Notes under the pieces: generated by a model
Seen by the model: only the letters and a program-made list of their open reading frames with translations
Databases searched by the model: none
What the model was told of the DNA's origin: nothing
Assembly: GCA_965263035.1 (NCBI GenBank)
Contig: OZ253580.1
Coordinates: 6,016,001 to 6,080,000, forward strand
Source: Acidobacteriota bacterium
Lineage (GTDB): Bacteria; Acidobacteriota; UBA6911; RPQK01; JAJDTT01
Direction: 5' to 3'
DNA length: 64,000 nt
Shown: piece after piece, positions 9,750 to 56,089 of the stretch
How positions within the stretch are numbered: the stretch's first letter is position 1
Layout: every line of letters starts with the position of its first letter
Made by a program: the position numbers and the translations under genes

Positions 9750-9938
9750 CCCGTCCTTGCACCTTGCACAACACGCGTGTTCATGTCGACCACGCGTTAT
9801 AGACCTTCTGCAATTCTTCGATCCAACACTTATCCTCATCGATCGTATCGCGTCCCCGCGACCGGGCTAGGAAATTGATCTACTGCGAAAGCGGTAGAAT
9901 CGGTCCATATTCCCCCGATTTCTCGGCGAATAGAACAA

Positions 9939-10301
9939 CTATGCACCTCCAAATCGAGAAAATCTGGCCTCGATTCCCCACTTTCTCGCTACGATCATTT
10001 CTACCGCGCAGACTCCTAGCGTGAAGAAACCGGGTCCGGGTATCCGGTCACCCTTGTGCACGACCACGGCGGTGAGCATCCCTCGTCCTGCTTCATCCTC
10101 TTCAGTCGAGATATCCCCGAGCATCCGCGCCAAGCGGGGGTCATGGGGTTCGAGAATGCAACTCGTAATGCTGTGCACGAGGTCTGAATAAGCAATCGTG
10201 TCCCGCTGGCGGGACACGGCAATCATGGCTTTGCGGGCTTCTTCCTTGGCGGCGTTCCAGGCGATTTGAGTAAATCCGTGATTGAAGGTTTCACGCTTCA
10301 T
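9939..10301 (-). CDS. Hypothetical protein coupled to the methyltransferase gene
   Basis: ATGA overlap with the MTase stop; TIAYSDL...GMLTAVVV...PGPGFF. Confidence 0.6.
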   Translation of the reverse strand: MKRETFNHGFTQIAWNAAKEEARKAMIAVSRQRDTIAYSDLVHSITSCILEPHDPRLARMLGDISTEEDEAGRGMLTAVVVHKGDRIPGPGFFTLGVCAVEMIVARKWGIEARFSRFGGA

Positions 10302-32288: not shown

Positions 32289-33983
32289 TTGAAGCACCGG
32301 AAACGGAAAAACCTGCGCAGCCGCGAGTGGTTCGACACTCCCGAACTGTACGGGTGGACTCGACAGGCGGCCTTGCAGGGACTCGGACTGGACCCCGCAG
32401 TGTACCGGGACCGTCCCCTCATCGGCATCTGCAACACCTGGAGCGAGTTGACCCATTGCAATGCCCACCTGCGCACGTTGGCCCAGCGGGTCAAGGAGGG
32501 GGTCTGGCAGGCCGGCGGGGTGCCCTTCGAATTTCCGGTCATCTCGTTGGGCGAGTTCAACATGCGCCCCACCTCCATGCTCTTCCGGAACCTCTTGAGC
32601 ATGGACGTGGAGGAATGCATCCGGGCCAATCCTCTGGATGGGGTGGTCCTCCTGGGAGGTTGCGACAAGACCACGCCGGGACTGCTCATGGGCGCCGTGA
32701 GTGCGGACGTGCCGGCGATTCTCGTGACCGGCGGGCCACAACTCACCGCCCACTGGCGAGGCCAGGAGTTGGGATCCTGCACCGATTGCAGGCGCTTCGA
32801 GGCCGAACTTCGAGCCGGGAGGATCGGCCAAGAAGACTGGCTGGATCTCCAGGGCGCCATGGTCCGGAGTCCGGGCCACTGCATGACCATGGGCACGGCC
32901 TCCACCCTGGCCACGCTGGCCGAAGCCCTGGGAATGGCACTGCCCGGGAACGCCGCCTACCCGGCGGCCGATTCCCGCCGAACGCGCTTGGCGCACCGGG
33001 CCGGACGCCAGATCGTGCGCCTGGTGGAACTGGACCTGAAACCTTCTCGGCTGCTGAGCGCCGGATCGTTCGACAACGCCATCCGCACCCTTCATGCCAT
33101 CGGCGGTTCCACCAACGCCATCGTTCATCTCCTCGCGGTGGCCGGGCGGACCGGCATCCCGCTGTCCCTCAAGAGGTTCGACGAACTGTCCCAGACCACG
33201 CCGGTGCTGCTGGATCTGAAGCCGGCCGGCCGCTTCCTGATGGAGGACTTCGCCTACGCGGGAGGGGCCCCGGCGCTCCTGAGTGAGATGGCGCCCCTGC
33301 TGGATCTGGACCAGCCGACGGTCACCGGTCTGAGCCTGGGCGAAAACCTCCAGGGGGCGCGCAACGACAATCCGGAAGTCATCCATCCCATGGACCGCCC
33401 TCTGGAGACCTCCGGCGGCCTGGCCGTTCTCTATGGATCCCTGGCCCCGGACGGATGCATCATCAAGCACAGCGCCGCCACGCCCGGACTTCTCCGCCAT
33501 GAGGGCCGGGCGGTGGTTTTCGAAGACCACCACGAACTACTGGAGGGAATCGACGGTCCGGACCTGGACGTCGGTCCCGAAGACGTGCTGGTGCTTCGGG
33601 GCGTCGGCCCCCTCGGCGGGCCGGGCATGCCCGAGTGGGGCTTGCTCCCGATCCCTCGAAAGCTGCTCCGAGCGGGCGTTCAGGACATGGTCCGGATCAG
33701 CGACTCACGTATCAGCGGCACGGCTCGAGGCACGGTGGTGGTCCACGTCTGTCCGGAAAGCGTGGCGGGAGGTCCTCTGGCCGCAGTCCGGACCGGCGAT
33801 CGTATCCGGCTGGACGTCCCCGCGCGGCGGTTGGACCTCCTGGTGGAGCCCCGAGAGATCCAGCGCCGGATGGCAGGCATCCGTTCGACCGTCCGCCCCG
33901 CCGCGAGAGGCTACCGCCGGCTCTACTTCGAGCACGTCCTGCAGGCCGACCAGGGATGTGATTTCGATTTCCTGCAGGCGTAG
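32289..33983 (+). CDS. IlvD/Edd-family sugar-acid dehydratase
   Basis: IGICNTWSELTHCN, GGCDKTTP, CMTMGTAST, GGSTN, SDSRISGT. Confidence 0.9.
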   Translation: MKHRKRKNLRSREWFDTPELYGWTRQAALQGLGLDPAVYRDRPLIGICNTWSELTHCNAHLRTLAQRVKEGVWQAGGVPFEFPVISLGEFNMRPTSMLFRNLLSMDVEECIRANPLDGVVLLGGCDKTTPGLLMGAVSADVPAILVTGGPQLTAHWRGQELGSCTDCRRFEAELRAGRIGQEDWLDLQGAMVRSPGHCMTMGTASTLATLAEALGMALPGNAAYPAADSRRTRLAHRAGRQIVRLVELDLKPSRLLSAGSFDNAIRTLHAIGGSTNAIVHLLAVAGRTGIPLSLKRFDELSQTTPVLLDLKPAGRFLMEDFAYAGGAPALLSEMAPLLDLDQPTVTGLSLGENLQGARNDNPEVIHPMDRPLETSGGLAVLYGSLAPDGCIIKHSAATPGLLRHEGRAVVFEDHHELLEGIDGPDLDVGPEDVLVLRGVGPLGGPGMPEWGLLPIPRKLLRAGVQDMVRISDSRISGTARGTVVVHVCPESVAGGPLAAVRTGDRIRLDVPARRLDLLVEPREIQRRMAGIRSTVRPAARGYRRLYFEHVLQADQGCDFDFLQA

Positions 33984-34259
33984 GGAGCGGCGGTTTCCAA
34001 CCGCCGAACAGGAGCGGCGACTTTCTTGTCGCCGACAGGGGGGCAGGGGGGACGGAGTCCCCACTTTACACTTTCCGGCCCCTACACTATCCGGCCGCCG
34101 AATCGAATAGGGACACAGAAGAGCAGGCGGCAAGAAAGCCGCCTGGCCCAGTGGGCGACAAGAAAGTCGCCCCTCCAGCAGGCGGCAAGAAAGCCGCTTG
34201 GCCCGGTGGGCGATTAGAAATCGCCCCTCCCAGTGGGCGGCAAGAAAGCTGTCCCTCCT
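33983..34259. repeat. REP/REPIN-like palindrome cluster
   Basis: Multiple GGCG(A/G)CAAGAAAG(T/C)CGCC and GGAGCGGCGGTTTCCAACCGCC hairpins between convergent genes. Confidence 0.8.
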
Positions 34260-50577: not shown

Positions 50578-51162
50578 TCAGTCCGACTCCAGCAGGCCGG
50601 CCGCTTCCAGTGGACGCCAAAAGGCGTAGTCGGCATGGTGGACGATGGTCACGTGTAGAGAACGGCGGACCAGCTCGCCCTCGCCCGAGTGGCAACCGGC
50701 GGCGTGGCAGACTTCCTCGGGAAGCCCCACCACCAGGCAAACGTGAGTTCCGTACTGGGGATGGCGGATGGGGGGCCAGCCCGAGGCGGCGGGCCGGCTG
50801 CTCCAGCGCTTCTGTCGCGGAGGATCGAACTCGTAGGGCTTGCCCACATCATGGCAGAGTGCGCAAGCGGCCAGCAGGTCCCGATCGATGGGGAGCTGGG
50901 GAAACTGTTCCTTGAGCGTGTCGGCCAAGGCCAGCGCCAGTCGGGTCACACCCCGGATGTGGTCGGTCTGGGTGCCCCCCTTCAGCGTGGGCGTGTCGGG
51001 ATTGCCCGAGGGGCGAATCTCGTCGATGGACTGGAAGGTACTCTGGCCCAGGCAGTAGGCCCAGGCGTCCACCACCAGATTACGGAGTTCTTCGTCCTTG
51101 ATCTCCGACAACTCGGGAAGAGATTTTCGGACCGATTCGCGCAGGTCCTCACGTATTTCCAT
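50578..51162 (-). CDS. HD-domain phosphohydrolase
   Basis: DHIRGV, LCHDVGK, CHS, HHAD. Confidence 0.88.
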   Translation of the reverse strand: MEIREDLRESVRKSLPELSEIKDEELRNLVVDAWAYCLGQSTFQSIDEIRPSGNPDTPTLKGGTQTDHIRGVTRLALALADTLKEQFPQLPIDRDLLAACALCHDVGKPYEFDPPRQKRWSSRPAASGWPPIRHPQYGTHVCLVVGLPEEVCHAAGCHSGEGELVRRSLHVTIVHHADYAFWRPLEAAGLLESD

Positions 51163-51251
51163 GGCCTCACCCCCAGTGCGGTCAAGCTATCCCCCACCCC
51201 GGGGGGTGTCAAGTCGGGACGCCCCTGGTGGGCGCCCTCGTTCGTCTTGAA

Positions 51252-51480
51252 AGGAGGGGCGATTTCCAGTCGCCCTCTTCCACCCCTGCCCCAGACTCAC
51301 TCCGGTGTCGGCGGGAGGGGTGATTTCCAATCGCCCTCTTCCACCCCTGCCCACAAACTCACCCCGGTGTCGGCGGGAGGGGTGATTTCCAATCGCCCTC
51401 TTCCACCCCTGCCCACAAACTCACCCCGGTGTCGGCGGCTAGAAACCGCCGCTCCCATTCGGCGGCTGGAAACCGCCGCT
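51252..51480 (+). repeat. Three 61-62-bp tandem repeats followed by two REP hairpins
   Basis: Units start at 51252, 51313 and 51375; then CGGCGGCT(A/G)GAAACCGCCGCT x2. Confidence 0.85.
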
Positions 51481-51494
51481 TGTCTGTTTAAATG

Positions 51495-51660
51495 GGGCCG
51501 TCCGGGTCGCTCATGAGCGACCCGGACGGCGGTGGCTGGACCGTACCGCCGCGGACTGTTACGAACCGTATGGGAGTGAGGTCGGCCACCGTCTTTCCCG
51601 ATGTCCTGAATGGATACGAGGGCATCAAGGCCCGAATGACAAGCACAGGAGACAGGAAAG
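51495..51660 (+). ncRNA. IS110 bridge RNA
   Basis: 5' hairpin 51497-51530; target loop ACCGCCGC (51545) and ATGGGAG (51570); donor loop ATGGATAC (51610) and GACAAG (51638). Confidence 0.82.
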
Positions 51661-52608
51661 ATGAAACAGCATACCGTAGGCATCGACATCTCGAAAGCGC
51701 ACCTGGACGCGCACCGGCTGGCCGACGGCCATTCCGCCCAGTTCGACAATGACCCGGCCGGCTTCCGGGCGCTGATTGATTGGATCGGAACTCCGGTCGA
51801 GTGCGTCGCGTACGAGGCCACCGGTCCCTACCACCGGGACCTCGAGGAAGCGCTGTCCAAAGCGAAGCTGCCGCTGGCGAAGGTGAACCCCTGGCAGGCG
51901 CGGCGCTTCGCCGAGGCGACCGGGAGCCGCGCCAAGACCGACGCCGTAGACGCTCGGAAACTGGCCCAGCTGGCCGCCACGCTGGAGCCGCGCCGGACCC
52001 AGGTGCCGTCCAAAACGCAACGCCGGCTCCAGGATCTGCAGACGTCCCGGGACGCGCTGATGCGCCAGCGCACGGCCGCGCTCAACCGCCGCCGACAGCT
52101 CCGCGAACCCCTGCTCAAACAGCAGAACCAGATCCAGATCAACATGTTCGAGCGCCACCTGCGCGCCATCGACCGCAAAATGCAGCAGCTGATTGCGGCC
52201 GACGAGGCGCGGGCCCGCAAGTTGGAGATCCTCACCTCCATCCCGGGGATCGCGGCCACCACCGCCGCCGGTCTGCTGGCCGAGATGCCCGAGCTGGGCG
52301 CCCTCAGCGGCAAGGCCGCCGCCAGTCTGGCCGGGTTGGCCGCCGTTCCGCGCGAGTCGGGGGCTTGGCAGGGCCGGGCCTTCATCCGGGGCGGACGGGC
52401 GCGGGCGCGACGGCTCCTGTACATGCCGGCGGTGGCCGCCCTGCGTTGGAACCCCGACTTGGCCGAGGTGTACCGGAGGCTGAGCGAGCGCGGCAAGCCC
52501 GGCAAGGTGGCCCTCGTCGCCGTCATGCGCAAGCTTATCGTCCTGGCCAACACCCTCGTCCGGCAGGACCGCACCTGGTTGCCCGTAGCGCCCCGAGCGA
52601 CCTTCTGA
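51661..52608 (+). CDS. IS110 DEDD recombinase
   Basis: VGIDISK, YEATG, KTDAVDA, SIPGI, RESG. Confidence 0.95.
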   Translation: MKQHTVGIDISKAHLDAHRLADGHSAQFDNDPAGFRALIDWIGTPVECVAYEATGPYHRDLEEALSKAKLPLAKVNPWQARRFAEATGSRAKTDAVDARKLAQLAATLEPRRTQVPSKTQRRLQDLQTSRDALMRQRTAALNRRRQLREPLLKQQNQIQINMFERHLRAIDRKMQQLIAADEARARKLEILTSIPGIAATTAAGLLAEMPELGALSGKAAASLAGLAAVPRESGAWQGRAFIRGGRARARRLLYMPAVAALRWNPDLAEVYRRLSERGKPGKVALVAVMRKLIVLANTLVRQDRTWLPVAPRATF

Positions 52609-53092
52609 GGCCACGGAGAAACCCCGTGAGGAAAGGGAGCGTGTGGACCCCCTGATGGCCGTCTGTCGAACTTCCGGTCAAGTCTGGCCGGAAGCTTGCT
52701 TACGGCCATGAAAGCTCTTCACGCCCTGGGGAGCGCCGGGTCACCCGAAGGGTCGCAGCGAAGCGGAGGAGCCGGAGGCTTGACCCGACGCTCCCCAGGG
52801 CGTATCCGGACCTCCCGGAGGACTGACGTCGACGATCTCAGGTCCCTCGATCCAGTTATCGGTCCACTCATCGCCCCCTGCACGGCGCCCGGCGGATCCA
52901 GCTCGATCTCCGCCTCACCTCCGGCGGAAGAACGCTCCTCCTAACCCTGTGCCCTTTGGACCGGACAGATCACGTACTAACGACACGGGATGGAAACACC
53001 GATTAGCACCCACCACTTGCAACATGGATACTCCCGTTCGGCGTTTGGAAAACCGCCGCTCCCAAGGAGATTGCCGTATTCTGGGACCGGTA

Positions 53093-56089
53093 ATGCTCCG
53101 ATTACGAGACCTCTTCCTGGTTTTGATCTGGCCCGTGCTGGGCCTGGCCTGCCATTTGGCGCCGGACACGGGCATCAACAACACCGACCTGGAGTTCGCC
53201 CTGGCGGGCCCGTTTCAGTTGGACACCATCGCCTCCGAGCCGGAGATCCGGCAACCGCTGTACATGACCTTCGACGAACGGGGGCGGATCTGGGTGGTTC
53301 AGTATCTCCAGTATCCCTTCCCCGCCGGCTTGAAGGTCGTTTCCCATGACCGCTTCTGGCGCGTCCAATACGACCGCTTTCCGCCCCCGCCGCCACCCGG
53401 CCATATCCCGGGCCGGGACCGGGTCACCATCCTGGAAGACCGGGACGGCGACGGCCGCTACGAGACTCAGAAGGACTTCGTCACTGGACTGAACATCTGC
53501 AGCGCGGCACTGCCCGGGCGCGGCGGCGTCTGGGTGCTGAATCCCCCGTATCTGCTCTTCTACCCGGACGCGGACCGGGACGACGTGCCCGACGGCCCCC
53601 CTGCGGTGCACCTGGAAGGCTTCGGCCTGGAGGACCTCCACTCCGTCTCCAACAGCCTGCTCTGGGGACCGGACGGCTGGCTCTACGGCTGCACCGGAAG
53701 CACCACCACGGCCACCATCCGCCACCCCGGCAAGGAGGGGCCGGGGCTCCACTTCAAGGGACAATCCATCTGGCGCTACCATCCCGGGAAACAGATCTTC
53801 GAGCTCTTCGCCGAGGGCGGGTACAACAATTTCGGCCTCGCCATGGACGCCAAGGGACGACTCTATACCGGCACCAATGGAAGCCTCATCGGCGTCCACT
53901 ACGTTCAAGGGGGCTACTATCGAAAGACCTGGGGCAAGCACGGCCCCCTGACCAACCCGTATGCCTTTGGTTTCTTTCCGGCCATGGAGGATCACAGCAG
54001 CAAGGCGAGGCTCTCCCAGGCCATGATCGTCTACGACGGGGGACAACTGCCCGACGCCTACGAGGGCACGCTGATCACCGCCCGGGTGCTTCGGCGACGC
54101 CTCGACGTTTGCGACCTGGAGAGCCGGGGCTCCACCTATGCCGCTCGCGAACGGGAAACCATCCTCTCCAGCCCCGACGTTCACTTCCGGCCCGTCGACC
54201 TGAAGGCAGGCCCGGACGGCGCCATCTACATTGCGGACTGGTACGACCGGAACGTGACCTGGAACGTCTCCGCCGAGAACGACGGGACCGACCGGTCCAC
54301 CGGACGAATCTACCGCCTCGGCCGCACCGGAACGGCACCCGCCGAGCCCTTCGACCTGAGCCTCCTTTCCGGACCGGAGCTCGTCGACCTCCTGTTGACG
54401 GACAACAAATGGCAGCGGCAGATGGCCCAGCGTCTGCTTCGCGAGCGGAAAGACGCTTCCCTGATCCCGCGTCTGGAGAAGCTGCTGGCCACCAGCGCAG
54501 GACAGCCGGCCCTGGAGGCGCTCTGGGCCCTGGGTGCCAGCGGCGGTTTCAGTCTTGAATCGGCACTCCGTTCGCTGGACCACGCAGACCCCTTCGTCCG
54601 CATCTGGACGATCCGACTCCTGGGGGACGACGGAGAGCTGAATCCGCCCCTCCGAAAGAGATTGCAGGTTCTGGCCGCGGACGAGACGCACCCGCAGGTC
54701 CGCAGCCAACTGTCCTCCTCGGTGAAGCGGTTTCCGCTTGCCGACGCGCTTCCCGTCCTGAGCGTCCTCCTGGAAAAATCAGAGGACCTTGCGGACCCGC
54801 ACATCCCGTTGCTGCTCTGGTGGGCCGTGGAGGCGAAACTGCGAGAGGGACCGAATGAGGTGCTGCACTGGGTGCGGCAGCAGATCCCGGCGGCGACGCC
54901 CCTCATGAATCAGGTCATCCTTCCTCGATTGGGACAGCGCTTCACCGTGGAGAGGAACCGAGAGGATCTCGTGACCTGTCACCGGTTGCTGGAACTCGAG
55001 TTGACGCCGGAACAGGTGCGGAGCCTGGCCCAGGGGATGATTCAGGGCCTGAGGGGCGCTCCGCTCGATCGCTGTCCTCCCCGGCTGCTTCGGAAGGTGG
55101 AGCAACTCTCGTCCCGCCTGCCTTCGGAATCCGCGCTGCTGGATCTGGCGATCCGTTTGGGAAGTGCCATGGCCGTCGAGCGTGTTCTGGCACGGTTCGA
55201 AGATCCCTCCCTCACGGAGGAATCCCGAATCGCCTTCATCCACACGCTGGCCGAATGCCGCATCGGCGGGGGGCTGGACCTGCTTTTGGACAGCTTCCGG
55301 CACGGCGCTTCCCCGGAGATCCGTGCGGAGGCTCTGGGGGCGCTGCACGACTTCCCGGAGGAGCGCGTCGCCCACAGCTTGCTGGAGTACTTCCCGGACA
55401 CCGATGCGGAACTTCGGCCCAAGCTCCTTCACCTGCTGGCCTCGCGAGTCTCGTGGGCCCGGCTGCTGCTGGATCGGATCGACTCCGCCCTGATCCCGGA
55501 GACTGCCGCGTCCCGGGGCCTATTGGTTCGAATCGCGAGTCTGGAGGACGAGGAAATCAACCGGCGGCTCTATGGGCGATGGGGCCGAATTCGCCAGAAT
55601 CCCCAAGAGAAGCTGGCCCGGATGTCGGCCGTCCGTTCCATGCTGACACGGGGCCGGAGGTCGTCCGAACTGGGTGCGGACCTCTTCCGAGAACTCTGCT
55701 CCAGCTGTCATCGCTTTCGAGGCGTGGGCACCCAGGTCGGGCCGGACCTCACGCAGATCGATGGCATGGAGCGAGACGCCCTGATGGAAGCCATCGTGGA
55801 CCCGGGAAGCTCCATCCTTCCCGACTTCATGGGATTTGTCCTGACCGTGGACAGGGACGGGACCGGCGCCGAACCTCAGCTCCTGGAGGGCCTGGTGCTG
55901 GAGGAGAACCCGCGCACCACCACTATCGTCGACTCGTCGGGCAGCCAGATTCAGGTGCCCAGCCCCGCCATCCTCCACAAGGAGGCCATGCAGGAGTCGA
56001 TCATGCCCGACGGTCTGCTGCACAACCTGGACGAGGAGCAAATCAGGGACCTGTTCGCCTATCTCCGAGGTCGAGACGGACCCCAGTAG
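53093..56089 (+). CDS. PVC-type heme-binding membrane-bound dehydrogenase-like protein
   Basis: FDERGRIWVVQYLQYP propeller, HEAT-like helices, CSSCH, VGPDL, SIMPDGL. Confidence 0.88.
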   Translation: MLRLRDLFLVLIWPVLGLACHLAPDTGINNTDLEFALAGPFQLDTIASEPEIRQPLYMTFDERGRIWVVQYLQYPFPAGLKVVSHDRFWRVQYDRFPPPPPPGHIPGRDRVTILEDRDGDGRYETQKDFVTGLNICSAALPGRGGVWVLNPPYLLFYPDADRDDVPDGPPAVHLEGFGLEDLHSVSNSLLWGPDGWLYGCTGSTTTATIRHPGKEGPGLHFKGQSIWRYHPGKQIFELFAEGGYNNFGLAMDAKGRLYTGTNGSLIGVHYVQGGYYRKTWGKHGPLTNPYAFGFFPAMEDHSSKARLSQAMIVYDGGQLPDAYEGTLITARVLRRRLDVCDLESRGSTYAARERETILSSPDVHFRPVDLKAGPDGAIYIADWYDRNVTWNVSAENDGTDRSTGRIYRLGRTGTAPAEPFDLSLLSGPELVDLLLTDNKWQRQMAQRLLRERKDASLIPRLEKLLATSAGQPALEALWALGASGGFSLESALRSLDHADPFVRIWTIRLLGDDGELNPPLRKRLQVLAADETHPQVRSQLSSSVKRFPLADALPVLSVLLEKSEDLADPHIPLLLWWAVEAKLREGPNEVLHWVRQQIPAATPLMNQVILPRLGQRFTVERNREDLVTCHRLLELELTPEQVRSLAQGMIQGLRGAPLDRCPPRLLRKVEQLSSRLPSESALLDLAIRLGSAMAVERVLARFEDPSLTEESRIAFIHTLAECRIGGGLDLLLDSFRHGASPEIRAEALGALHDFPEERVAHSLLEYFPDTDAELRPKLLHLLASRVSWARLLLDRIDSALIPETAASRGLLVRIASLEDEEINRRLYGRWGRIRQNPQEKLARMSAVRSMLTRGRRSSELGADLFRELCSSCHRFRGVGTQVGPDLTQIDGMERDALMEAIVDPGSSILPDFMGFVLTVDRDGTGAEPQLLEGLVLEENPRTTTIVDSSGSQIQVPSPAILHKEAMQESIMPDGLLHNLDEEQIRDLFAYLRGRDGPQ

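What the first reader, a model, noticed from the sequence alone, without database searches (positions are those of the whole stretch)
51472..53040. IS110 bridge recombinase with fully readable guides programmed to a REP
Seen: target ACCGCCG-CT-CCC(G/A)T matches the left guide ACCGCCGC and the right guide ATGGGAG (reverse complement CTCCCAT). The circle donor ATGGATA-CT-TGTC matches ATGGATAC and GACAAG. The junction would create TTGCAA-N17-TTAAAT. Empty matching targets lie at 51445, 53052 and 33983-33994. Known: this is the IS621 bridge-RNA architecture. This is a likely new ortholog with a GC-rich target.
Basis: partly seen in the sequence, partly recalled or inferred. Interest (0 to 1): 0.75.

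Follow-up and report, generated by a model that had tools for sequence, protein, structure and literature searches.

The report
Bridge-RNA insertion sequence targeting REP hairpins
This is a small jumping gene of the well-known IS110 family that carries its own guide RNA telling its enzyme where to insert; the mechanism is already known, but the guides can be read directly here, and sister copies in the same genome carry altered guides that fit different landing sites.

Summary
Window 51481-53030 is an IS110-group insertion sequence with a CT core at each boundary. It encodes a 315-aa DEDD/Ser recombinase related to IS621 and ISCro4. The 180-nt left end folds into a 5' stem-loop plus two internal-loop modules, and these stems covary across relatives.

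The genome holds 12 complete copies, one truncated copy and several solo ends. They fall into four guide classes. Ten of the 11 variable sites inside the bridge RNA lie in the target-binding loop.

Three copies carry a C-to-A change in the left target guide. They sit at ACCGACG-CT sites inside the end of an IS5-like element, not at the REP foot ACCGCCG-CT.

Across Acidobacteriota and Ca. Foliamicus relatives, guides track the local REP arm and the donor end.

One of the two metatranscriptome runs laid shows much deeper contigs over the 5' part of the RNA than over the gene.

Verdict: a genuine, probably active bridge-RNA element. It is a new member of a known kind, with a modestly interesting natural retargeting series. 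No circle junction or transcript end was seen.

The parts
51445..51458 (+). Unoccupied REP target copy (ACCGCCG-CT-CCCAT), one REP unit upstream of the insertion
51460..51480 (+). REP hairpin CGGCGG-N7-CCGCCG. Its 3' arm is the left target (ACCGCCG, 51472-78), followed by the left core CT (51479-80).
51481..51660 (+). Left end of the element (180 nt), which encodes the bridge RNA. The right-donor half TGTCT is at 51481-85 and the 3-nt subterminal repeat GTT at 51486-88.
51488..51493 (+). Candidate -10 hexamer TTAAAT of the split junction promoter
   Evidence: The position is conserved in relatives. Not called by the scan.
51498..51529 (+). 5' stem-loop of the bridge RNA
   Evidence: helix 1: 6 of 12 pairs with compensatory change
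51530..51591 (+). Target-binding loop module. Base stems are 51530-35/51586-91 and 51539-42/51580-83. The left target guide ACCGCCGC is at 51545-52 and the right target guide GTATGGGAG at 51568-76. The handshake dinucleotide UG is at 51577-78.
51592..51598 (+). UCUUUCC, the 5' arm of an outer stem that pairs with the ribosome-binding region GGAAAGA (51655-61)
   Evidence: helix 4, one covarying pair
51604..51650 (+). Donor-binding loop module. The base stem is 51604-08/51646-50. The left donor guide ATGGATAC is at 51610-17 and the distal stem at 51620-23/51630-33. The right donor guide GACAAG is at 51638-43 and the handshake dinucleotide CA at 51644-45.
51661..52608 (+). Recombinase gene, 315 aa. 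The catalytic residues are D9, E52, D94, D97 and S233.
52609..53030 (+). Right end (422 nt), unusually long. The last ~90 nt are shared with relatives and the remainder is lineage-specific accretion.
52721..52803 (.). Nested 83-nt palindrome inside the right end. About 70-76 nt of it are missing in four copies of the genome.
53017..53032 (+). Candidate -35 hexamer TTGCAA (53017-22), subterminal repeat AAC (53021-23), left-donor half ATGGATA (53024-30) and right core CT (53031-32)
53033..53039 (+). Right target half CCCGTTC
53052..53063 (+). Unoccupied REP target copy downstream of the insertion
33983..33994 (-). Unoccupied REP target copy elsewhere in the window

Best explanation
Window 51481-53030 is a copy of an IS110-group insertion sequence that works like IS621. 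Its left end is transcribed into a bridge RNA of roughly 150 nt.

How the RNA is read:
[quoted passage not shown] - A second internal loop does the same for the joined ends of the excised circle. AUGGAUAC reads the right end, and GACAAG reads the core plus the left end.
- The DEDD/Ser recombinase then exchanges strands at the CT core.
- The landing site is the 3' foot of a REP hairpin.

What is shown:
- the protein family and its catalytic residues;
- the conserved, covarying RNA fold;
- the guide matches;
- covariation of guides with target and donor across paralogues and orthologues.

What is inferred:
- transcription from a promoter rebuilt at the circle junction;
- circle formation;
- present-day activity, suggested by three 100% identical copies;
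- trans-mobilisation of the copies whose recombinase gene is broken.
For: Protein:
- Pfam PF01548 (E 7e-23) and PF02371 (E 1e-18).
- NCBIfam NF033542, 208 bits against a cut-off of 140.
- PDB sequence matches to ISCro4 (9t56, E 1.7e-35) and IS621 (8wt6, E 3e-32). IS621 residues D11, E60, D102, D105 and S241 align with D9, E52, D94, D97 and S233.

RNA fold:
- The single-sequence fold has z = -6.0, and 0 of 200 shuffles fold as well.
- RNAalifold on 13 sequences gives a 5' stem-loop and two internal-loop modules. 12 of 40 predicted pairs show compensatory change.
- On 38 of those pairs, 95.7% of cells are paired. 0 of 500 shuffles reach the observed covariation score, and slid registers give 36-54% paired.

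Boundaries:
- 14 of 14 left ends are preceded by CT and 14 of 15 right ends are followed by CT.

Guides:
- All four strings are present, and 0 of 30,000 resamples hold all four.

Target tracking within the genome:
- The LT heptamer equals the guide in 11 of 12 complete copies.
- The 3 copies with guide ACCGACGC are exactly the 3 that sit at ACCGACG-CT.
- 10 of 11 variable sites inside the RNA lie in the 37-nt target loop, and 0 of 57 lie in the 5' stem-loop and target-loop stems (Fisher p = 2e-6).

Tracking across relatives:
- The LT heptamer equals the guide in 8 of 11 loci. The other 3 differ only at rU:dG positions.
- The donor guide tracks three right-donor variants (TGTC/GACAAG, TGTA/TACAAG, TATC/GATAAG) in 23 of 23 elements.
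- In L028 the right target CCAGAC is matched by the guide GUCUGGAG.
- In a permutation of 8 guide classes over their targets, 8 of 40,320 arrangements reach the observed fit.

Other points:
- Handshake rule (Hiraizumi 2024): the base after the right target guide (U) can pair with donor position 7 (A). The base after the right donor guide (C) can pair with target position 7 (G).
- 9 of 13 copies keep an intact 315-aa frame. Three copies are identical over 1550 nt.
- RNA hint: in the size-fractionated metatranscriptome X17, summed contig depth is 1261 and 689 over 51492-51619, against 14-26 over the gene. DNA-like run X1 shows 1050 and 476 against 260-919.
Against: - No transcript start or end, and no circle-junction contig, was seen in the four runs laid. 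These were contigs, which drop rare forms.
- The RNA depth signal comes from one run. The second RNA run (X16) is flat at about 10-11. In X17 the 3' half of the donor loop lies on a low-depth contig (14.5), so accumulation of a full-length RNA is not shown.
- The junction promoter matches only 8 of 12 consensus positions.
- The right end (422 nt) is longer than the left end (180 nt). This is opposite to the IS110-group habit stated by Durrant 2024.
- Right-target matching is loose. Own-guide fits are 11-13 of 14 for 11 copies, but 7 of 14 for copy 2496249.
- 4 of 12 copies fit a sister guide class better than their own.
- The second handshake positions do not pair with the non-cognate DNA.
- Guide classes are related lineages, so the permutation test overstates independence.
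Confidence: 0.9

Rival explanations
1. The bridge RNA is real, but site choice is set mainly by the REP hairpin, through protein or structure recognition. Base pairing would then be secondary, a stronger form of the 'dual-match' logic reported for ISPpu10.
For: - Every REP-type site is the foot of a 6-bp hairpin.
- Relatives in other hosts also sit at hairpin feet.
- Right-target pairing is imperfect.
- An ISPpu10 preprint reports a target stem-loop as an extra determinant (abstract read).
Against: - The three ACCGACG sites lie in an IS5-like element end. There the equivalent hairpin has only 4 bp and -3.2 kcal/mol, and 72 of 200 shuffles fold as well.
- Those sites are nevertheless occupied, and only by copies whose guide carries the matching base.
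- 0 of 4 otherwise similar ends reading ACCGAAG are occupied.
Confidence: 0.15
2. The three ACCGACG-type copies did not arise by RNA-guided retargeting. One chance insertion into the IS5-like element was then carried along when that element transposed, and the guide change is a coincidence.
For: - Two of the three host elements (at 1127344 and 3695501) are 99% identical over 300 nt, and 48-50 of 50 in each of the twelve 50-nt windows printed (600 nt), while the sequence further left differs. This fits carriage of a nested pair.
Against: - The third host element is only about 88% identical to the first, while the nested IS copies differ at 13 of about 1472 positions. That insertion is therefore younger than the divergence of its hosts.
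- A solo right end abuts a fourth such element.
- The guide change is the same base at the same position as the target change. A second change in the right guide (A to U) also fits the target (T to A at position 14).
Confidence: 0.12
3. The guide-like strings are not guides. They would be remnants of target and end sequences captured in the left end, and the fold would be a transcriptional or translational control element for the recombinase gene only.
For: - The outer stem UCUUUCC/GGAAAGA does cover the ribosome-binding region, so some cis-regulatory role of the fold is plausible.
Against: - The four strings sit in the internal loops with the strand rule of IS621: 5' side in sense, 3' side in antisense.
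- They covary with target and donor across phyla while the stems stay fixed.
- The protein is homologous to recombinases shown to need such an RNA (Durrant 2024 passages).
Confidence: 0.03

Closest known systems
IS621 of Escherichia coli (bridge recombinase and bridge RNA; PDB 8wt6)
   Same: - DEDD plus Ser recombinase with all five catalytic residues.
- CT core.
- Bridge RNA in the left end with a 5' stem-loop, a target loop and a donor loop.
- The 5' guides read the bottom strand and the 3' guides read the top strand.
- The first handshake base fits.
- The promoter is split across the junction.
- It lands in a REP (passages read in Durrant 2024 and Hiraizumi 2024).
   Different: - The sequence relationship is distant (E 3e-32).
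- The target is ACCGCCG-CT-CCCAT, against ATCAGGC-CT-AC for IS621.
- The right target guide is 7-9 nt, against 4 nt.
- The right end (422 nt) is longer than the left end.
- An extra stem covers the ribosome-binding site. It was not mentioned in the passages searched (terms ribosome, RBS, Shine: 0 occurrences).
ISCro4 (PDB 9t56)
   Same: It is the best solved-structure match (E 1.7e-35, residues 3-299).
   Different: Only the protein was compared. Its RNA was not examined here.
ISPpu10 and ISPpu9 of Pseudomonas putida
   Same: These are IS110 elements that land at a conserved GC-rich stem-loop or REP (abstracts).
   Different: They come from a different host and have different guides. Here a sister variant also uses a site that lacks the strong stem-loop.
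[quoted passage not shown]
   Same: These are IS110-family elements that land in the ends of other mobile elements. This precedent comes from reference-list titles only.
   Different: IS4321 and IS5075 are of the IS1111 group. Here the same element family in one genome shows both a REP-directed form and an IS-end-directed form that differ by single guide bases.

Membership tests
IS110 family, IS110 group (IS621-type bridge recombinase element) | Recombinase with an N-terminal DEDD RuvC-like domain and a C-terminal Tnp domain carrying a catalytic serine | tested here: met
   Pfam PF01548 and PF02371. NF033542 is over its cut-off. D9, E52, D94, D97 and S233 align to the IS621 catalytic residues and are kept in 10 of the 11 copies that could be scored.
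IS110 family, IS110 group (IS621-type bridge recombinase element) | A conserved CT core dinucleotide at both boundaries and no terminal inverted repeats | tested here: met
   14 of 14 left ends are preceded by CT and 14 of 15 right ends are followed by CT.
IS110 family, IS110 group (IS621-type bridge recombinase element) | A non-coding RNA in the left end with a 5' stem-loop and two internal-loop modules | tested here: met
   z = -6.0. The consensus fold has 12 compensatory pairs. 0 of 500 shuffles reach the observed covariation score. Rfam 15 has no matching family.
IS110 family, IS110 group (IS621-type bridge recombinase element) | [quoted passage not shown] The 3' side is complementary to the core plus the right target or donor. 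| tested here: met
   The strings lie at 51545, 51570, 51610 and 51638. Per-copy table.
IS110 family, IS110 group (IS621-type bridge recombinase element) | Guides covary with target and donor among relatives | tested here: met
   Permutation: 8 of 40,320. The lineages are related, so the significance is approximate.
IS110 family, IS110 group (IS621-type bridge recombinase element) | Handshake guides: the two bases 3' of the right guides pair with positions 7 and 6 of the non-cognate DNA | tested here: inconclusive
   The first base fits in both loops (U with donor A7, C with target G7). For the second base, G with donor T6 is only a wobble and A with target C6 is a mismatch. The target-loop dinucleotide could also pair with its own target.
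IS110 family, IS110 group (IS621-type bridge recombinase element) | A sigma-70 promoter rebuilt across the RE-LE junction | tested here: inconclusive
   TTGCAA-N17-TTAAAT matches 8 of 12 positions. The hexamers are at equivalent places in relatives (TTGACA-N18-TTGAAT in L030, TTGACA-N18-TGTAAT in L034). There are no transcript-start data.
IS110 family, IS110 group (IS621-type bridge recombinase element) | Long left end and short right end | tested here: not met
   The left end is 180 nt and the right end 422 nt. Relatives have right ends of 67-432 nt. This is a habit of the group stated in Durrant 2024, not a mechanistic requirement.
IS110 family, IS110 group (IS621-type bridge recombinase element) | A short (2-3 bp) subterminal inverted repeat flanking the donor | tested here: met
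   AAC (53021-23) and GTT (51486-88). It is kept in L030-L033 and not in L034-L036.
IS110 family, IS110 group (IS621-type bridge recombinase element) | A circular intermediate and RNA-dependent recombination | not testable with these tools
   There was no junction contig in the 4 runs laid. Contigs cannot exclude rare circles.
IS1111 group (seekRNA in the right end, long subterminal repeats) | Guide RNA encoded downstream of the recombinase gene; subterminal repeats of 7-17 bp | tested here: not met
   The guides lie upstream of the gene and the subterminal repeat is 3 bp.

The most novel reading that the evidence does not exclude
One genome holds a natural reprogramming series of a single bridge recombinase system. 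There are four target-loop variants on an unchanged donor loop and near-identical recombinases.

- One variant has been moved by a single left-guide base (C to A). A right-guide base that also fits the new site helps. The move is from the REP hairpin foot to the end of an IS5-like element, where it splits that element's terminus from its transposase gene.
- If the variants act in trans on each other's copies, the family behaves as a small network of guides sharing one donor.
- The series would also be a natural test of whether a target stem-loop is needed.
- The conserved stem that covers the ribosome-binding site may couple RNA folding to recombinase translation.
Probability: 0.4. Interest if true: 0.55.

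Novelty: new member of a known kind. Interest (0 to 1): 0.35.

Why it matters
The mechanism itself is established, so this does not open a new question.

Its value is as a clean natural data set. It offers 12 copies, four guide classes and single-base guide differences paired with single-base target differences. It also offers relatives in another phylum whose guides have shifted to that host's own REP arm.

This gives ready-made, evolution-tested guide and target pairs for a compact 315-aa recombinase with a 14-16 bp GC-rich site.

It also gives a natural contrast for two open points in the current literature. One is how much a target stem-loop contributes (ISPpu10 preprint). The other is how off-target or half-matched insertions arise (IS621 preprint), for which copy 2496249 is a candidate.

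Tried and rejected
- Rfam 15 on 51000-53500 gave only a chance microRNA hit (E 0.49). It holds no bridge-RNA family that matches.
- The promoter scan of the integrated locus found none. Its two terminator-like hits are the REP hairpin itself.
- Empty-site comparison in relatives: the right-flank gene was found in 12 of 20 relatives. The best match (G009, 78% identity) has no REP in the corresponding upstream region, so it says nothing about precise insertion.
- The laid contigs showed no RE-LE junction. The one 'goes back' joint (53200 to 51432, side 40) lies in REP repeats and is not a circle junction.
- Loose ends that continue from 51480 into REP-like sequence could be an empty allele or a paralogous REP. 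They were not counted as evidence.
- Parts of the stretch without cover in RNA runs are not used.
- A short distal stem-loop between the two target guides could not be fixed. RNAalifold predicted only two pairs there, which I dropped before (38 of 40 pairs counted).
- The 82-aa frame in the right end (52696-52941) has no Pfam match and is taken as non-coding.
- L084:1-30 was an arbitrary unrelated control and carries no weight.
- L022 and L024 (guide ACCGCCGC with GUUUGGGAG) showed no right end within 1500 nt, so they were left out of the target tables. L027, L028, L029 and L079 lack a recognisable left boundary and were also left out. The 42 alphaproteobacterial loci were not analysed beyond one row in the alignment.
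- Literature: a search for IS110 + Acidobacteriota + bridge RNA found 0 papers. A search for bridge RNA / target-binding loop / copies / same genome found 10 papers, none about in-genome guide variants by title or abstract.
- Supplementary tables of Durrant 2024 and the database of the 2026 language-model preprint (32,190 loci) were not visible. They may already list this element.
Full report
What is there

The window carries an open frame at 51661-52608 (+) of 315 aa. It matches Pfam DEDD_Tnp_IS110 (E 7e-23) and Transposase_20 (E 1e-18). It also matches the NCBIfam equivalog 'IS110 family RNA-guided transposase' at 208 bits, against a cut-off of 140.

By sequence it matches two solved recombinases: ISCro4 (9t56, E 1.7e-35) and IS621 (8wt6, E 3e-32). 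In the printed alignment the IS621 catalytic residues D11, E60, D102, D105 and S241 fall on D9, E52, D94, D97 and S233. These residue names come from Hiraizumi 2024 (passages read), and the chain numbering is shifted by two.

Boundaries and copies

The whole genome is a single contig of 6.198 Mb. The window is 6016001-6080000 of it.

It holds 12 complete copies, one truncated copy, one solo left end and three solo or degenerate right ends. 14 of 14 left ends are preceded by CT and 14 of 15 right ends are followed by CT.

The element proper is therefore 51481-53030, with CT at 51479-80 and 53031-32.

Three copies are identical over 1550 nt, and the others differ at 2 to 65 positions. 9 of 13 copies keep the full 315-aa frame. 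Two are cut after 30 aa, one after 274 aa, and one is shifted.

The observation

All four guide strings occur once each in the 180-nt left end, at 51545, 51570, 51610 and 51638. In 30,000 first-order resamples of that left end the single strings turned up 165, 807, 111 and 1539 times. At least two occurred together 58 times, and all four never.

The junction hexamers are TTGCAA at 53017-22 and TTAAAT at 51488-93, 17 nt apart once the ends are joined (counted). They fit only 8 of 12 consensus positions. The scan tool finds no promoter in the integrated arrangement.

The RNA

The left end folds far better than shuffles: z = -6.0, with 0 of 200 shuffles as good.

I aligned 13 left ends: four variants from this genome, five from other Acidobacteriota MAGs, three from Ca. 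Foliamicus and one from an alphaproteobacterial MAG. RNAalifold returned the following:
- a 5' stem-loop;
- a module with a long internal loop;
- a second such module with a distal hairpin;
- an outer stem.

12 of the 40 predicted pairs keep pairing through changes on both sides. On 38 of those pairs, 95.7% of cells are paired. 0 of 500 shuffles reach the observed covariation score, and sliding the partners by one to three columns gives 36-54% paired.

This is the layout described for IS621. Rfam 15 has no family that matches it.

Guides against sites, within the genome

Of the 14 left ends, 10 abut ACCGCCG, one abuts GCCGCCG and three abut ACCGACG.

The target loop comes in four forms:
- ACCGCCGC with GUAUGGGAG, in six copies;
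- ACCGACGC with GUUUGGGAG, in three copies;
- ACCGCCGC with GAAAAGCAG, in three copies, one of them truncated;
- ACCGCCGC with GAAAAGGAG, in one copy.

The three copies with the C-to-A guide are exactly the three at ACCGACG sites. Their A-to-U change in the right guide also fits the T-to-A difference at target position 14.

The GAAAAGGAG copy sits at CT-CCTCTTC and fits 13 of 14 positions.

Own-guide fits are 11-13 of 14 for 11 copies. Copy 2496249 fits only 7 of 14, and its right flank matches no guide. It may be a rearranged or half-matched insertion.

Results against the simple reading must be stated. Only 8 of 12 copies are best or tied-best with their own guide class, and four fit a sister class better. 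This is expected if guides act in trans on a shared donor, but that has not been shown.

Where the copies differ

Among the 12 complete copies, 97 of 1550 positions vary. Inside the RNA (element positions 18-170), 10 of 11 variable sites lie in the 37-nt target loop. None of 57 lie in the 5' stem-loop and target-loop stems, and one lies in the donor module (Fisher p = 2e-6). This is the pattern of a programmable loop held in a fixed scaffold.

The two kinds of landing site

The common site is the 3' foot of a REP hairpin, CGGCGG-N7-CCGCCG followed by CTCC. The genome holds 183 such hairpins with tail, and 241 copies of CCGCCGCTCC. Of 207 ACCGCCGCT sites, 10 continue into the element.

The ACCGACG sites lie about 40 nt inside the left end of another multi-copy element. 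Its frame matches DUF772 and DDE_Tnp_1, so it is IS5- or IS1182-like.

Of that element's ends:
- three are occupied, and a solo right end abuts a fourth;
- two read ACCGACG and are empty;
- four read ACCGAAG-CT-CCTTAAA and are all empty.

The host elements of two nested copies are only about 88% identical, while the nested copies differ at 13 of about 1472 positions. At least two insertions into that site were therefore independent. The other pair could have travelled as a nested unit.

The hairpin in register at this site has only 4 bp. It is no better than shuffles, 72 of 200 of which fold as well.

Relatives

A scan of one genome per species returned 60 loci:
- 10 in Acidobacteriota MAGs (84-94% aa identity);
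- 7 in Ca. Foliamicus, a gammaproteobacterium (65-69%; taxonomy);
- 42 in one alphaproteobacterial MAG (37-44%);
- 1 fragment.

Among 20 relatives of the window's genome, the left end was found in 5 of 8 genomes of the same genus. It was found in 0 of 12 beyond the genus (a sample that includes the unpublished G014).

In the 11 loci with both boundaries, the left target equals the guide in 8. In the other 3 it differs only where an RNA U would face a G. The guide follows the local REP arm: GTCGCCG in other Acidobacteriota and GCCCTCG in Foliamicus.

The donor guide follows three right-donor variants without exception, in 23 of 23 elements. In L028 the right target CCAGAC is matched by GUCUGGAG.

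Shuffling eight guide classes over their targets reaches the observed fit in 8 of 40,320 arrangements. The classes are related, so this is approximate.

Handshake bases

By the rule read in Hiraizumi 2024, the base after each right guide should pair with position 7 of the other DNA. Here U faces donor A7 and C faces target G7. The second bases do not pair cleanly, so this test is only half met.

Expression

Twenty of the 24 runs listed hold part of the stretch, and four of those are on record as RNA. I laid two RNA runs and two others.

In the size-fractionated metatranscriptome X17, summed contig depth is 1261 and 689 over 51492-51619. It is 14-26 over the gene and 46-138 over the last 200 nt. 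Two deep contigs differ in the target loop, and one carries the changes of the ACCGACG-type variant.

Run X1, of unknown kind, shows 1050 and 476 against 260-919. The other RNA run is flat.

This is a hint that the 5' part of the RNA accumulates. It comes from contigs of one run, shows no ends, and does not cover the 3' half of the donor loop. No circle junction was seen.

Comparison and novelty

The element meets the mechanistic features that define an IS621-type bridge system. It departs in one habit, having a right end longer than its left end. That right end has gained lineage-specific sequence, including an 83-nt palindrome.

REP targeting is the classic behaviour of IS621 and of ISPpu9 and ISPpu10. 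IS110-family elements that land in the ends of other mobile elements are also on record (reference titles).

Guide and target covariation across thousands of elements is the published basis of the mechanism. A 2026 preprint handles 32,190 such loci.

The element is thus a new member of a known kind. What is less ordinary is the set of single-base guide variants with matching sites inside one genome. I found no paper on this by two searches, but supplements were closed.

Verdict

- Observation: confirmed.
- Interpretation: supported.
- Confidence in the bridge-RNA reading: 0.9.
- Interest: 0.35.

Noticed in passing
window 9871-10019; genome-wide: A repeat of about 165 nt with more than 170 copies at roughly 90-98% identity is scattered over the genome. 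It looks MITE-like. One copy lies in the window and one lies next to a nested IS copy.
   Followed up: no
window 51254-51440: Three near-identical tandem units of about 61 nt lie directly upstream of the REP cluster that received the insertion. They were seen and not run through the tandem-repeat tool.
   Followed up: no
window 51592-51598 with 51655-51661: A conserved stem UCUUUCC/GGAAAGA encloses the donor loop and covers the ribosome-binding region and the A of the start codon. One pair covaries (C:G to U:A in three Foliamicus rows). It may couple RNA folding to translation of the recombinase. The terms ribosome, RBS and Shine do not occur in the two papers searched.
   Followed up: partly
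window 52721-52803: An 83-nt palindrome (23-nt arms, 96% complementary) is nested in the right end. About 70-76 nt are absent from four copies and from an RNA contig. Fragments occur elsewhere in the genome. Its right arm contains CCCGACGCTCCCC, which resembles the ACCGACG-type target.
   Followed up: partly
genome 2494775-2496249 (locus L011): This copy is a mosaic of two sublineages. Its right flank (CT-CTCGAGT) fits no guide in the genome (7-9 of 14). It is a candidate rearrangement or half-matched insertion.
   Followed up: partly
genome 4205102-4205526 and 5976187: Solo ends: two right-end fragments lie in opposite orientation next to an IS5-like element, and a solo left end of about 26 nt lies at a REP foot.
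   Followed up: no
genome 2038242, 2456930, 3359813, 4847789: A second, longer IS110-family recombinase type occurs in four copies. Its match spans about 1188 nt, with open frames of 505-558 aa. Relatives L029 and L079 show a different left end with a donor-loop-like AAUGGAGAC.
   Followed up: no
loci L037-L078: One alphaproteobacterial MAG of a few megabases holds 42 loci of related recombinases in two subfamilies, which is a large expansion.
   Followed up: no
window 52900-53027: The last ~130 nt of the right end have 6-8 times the contig depth of the gene in RNA run X17, but not in the other runs. This could be a stable 3' fragment or a separate small RNA, as reported for Ssr9 of ISPpu9 (abstract).
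   Followed up: no
window 51922-51984: An RNA-library contig of run X16 skips 61 nt inside the recombinase gene, so a deleted variant exists in that community.
   Followed up: no
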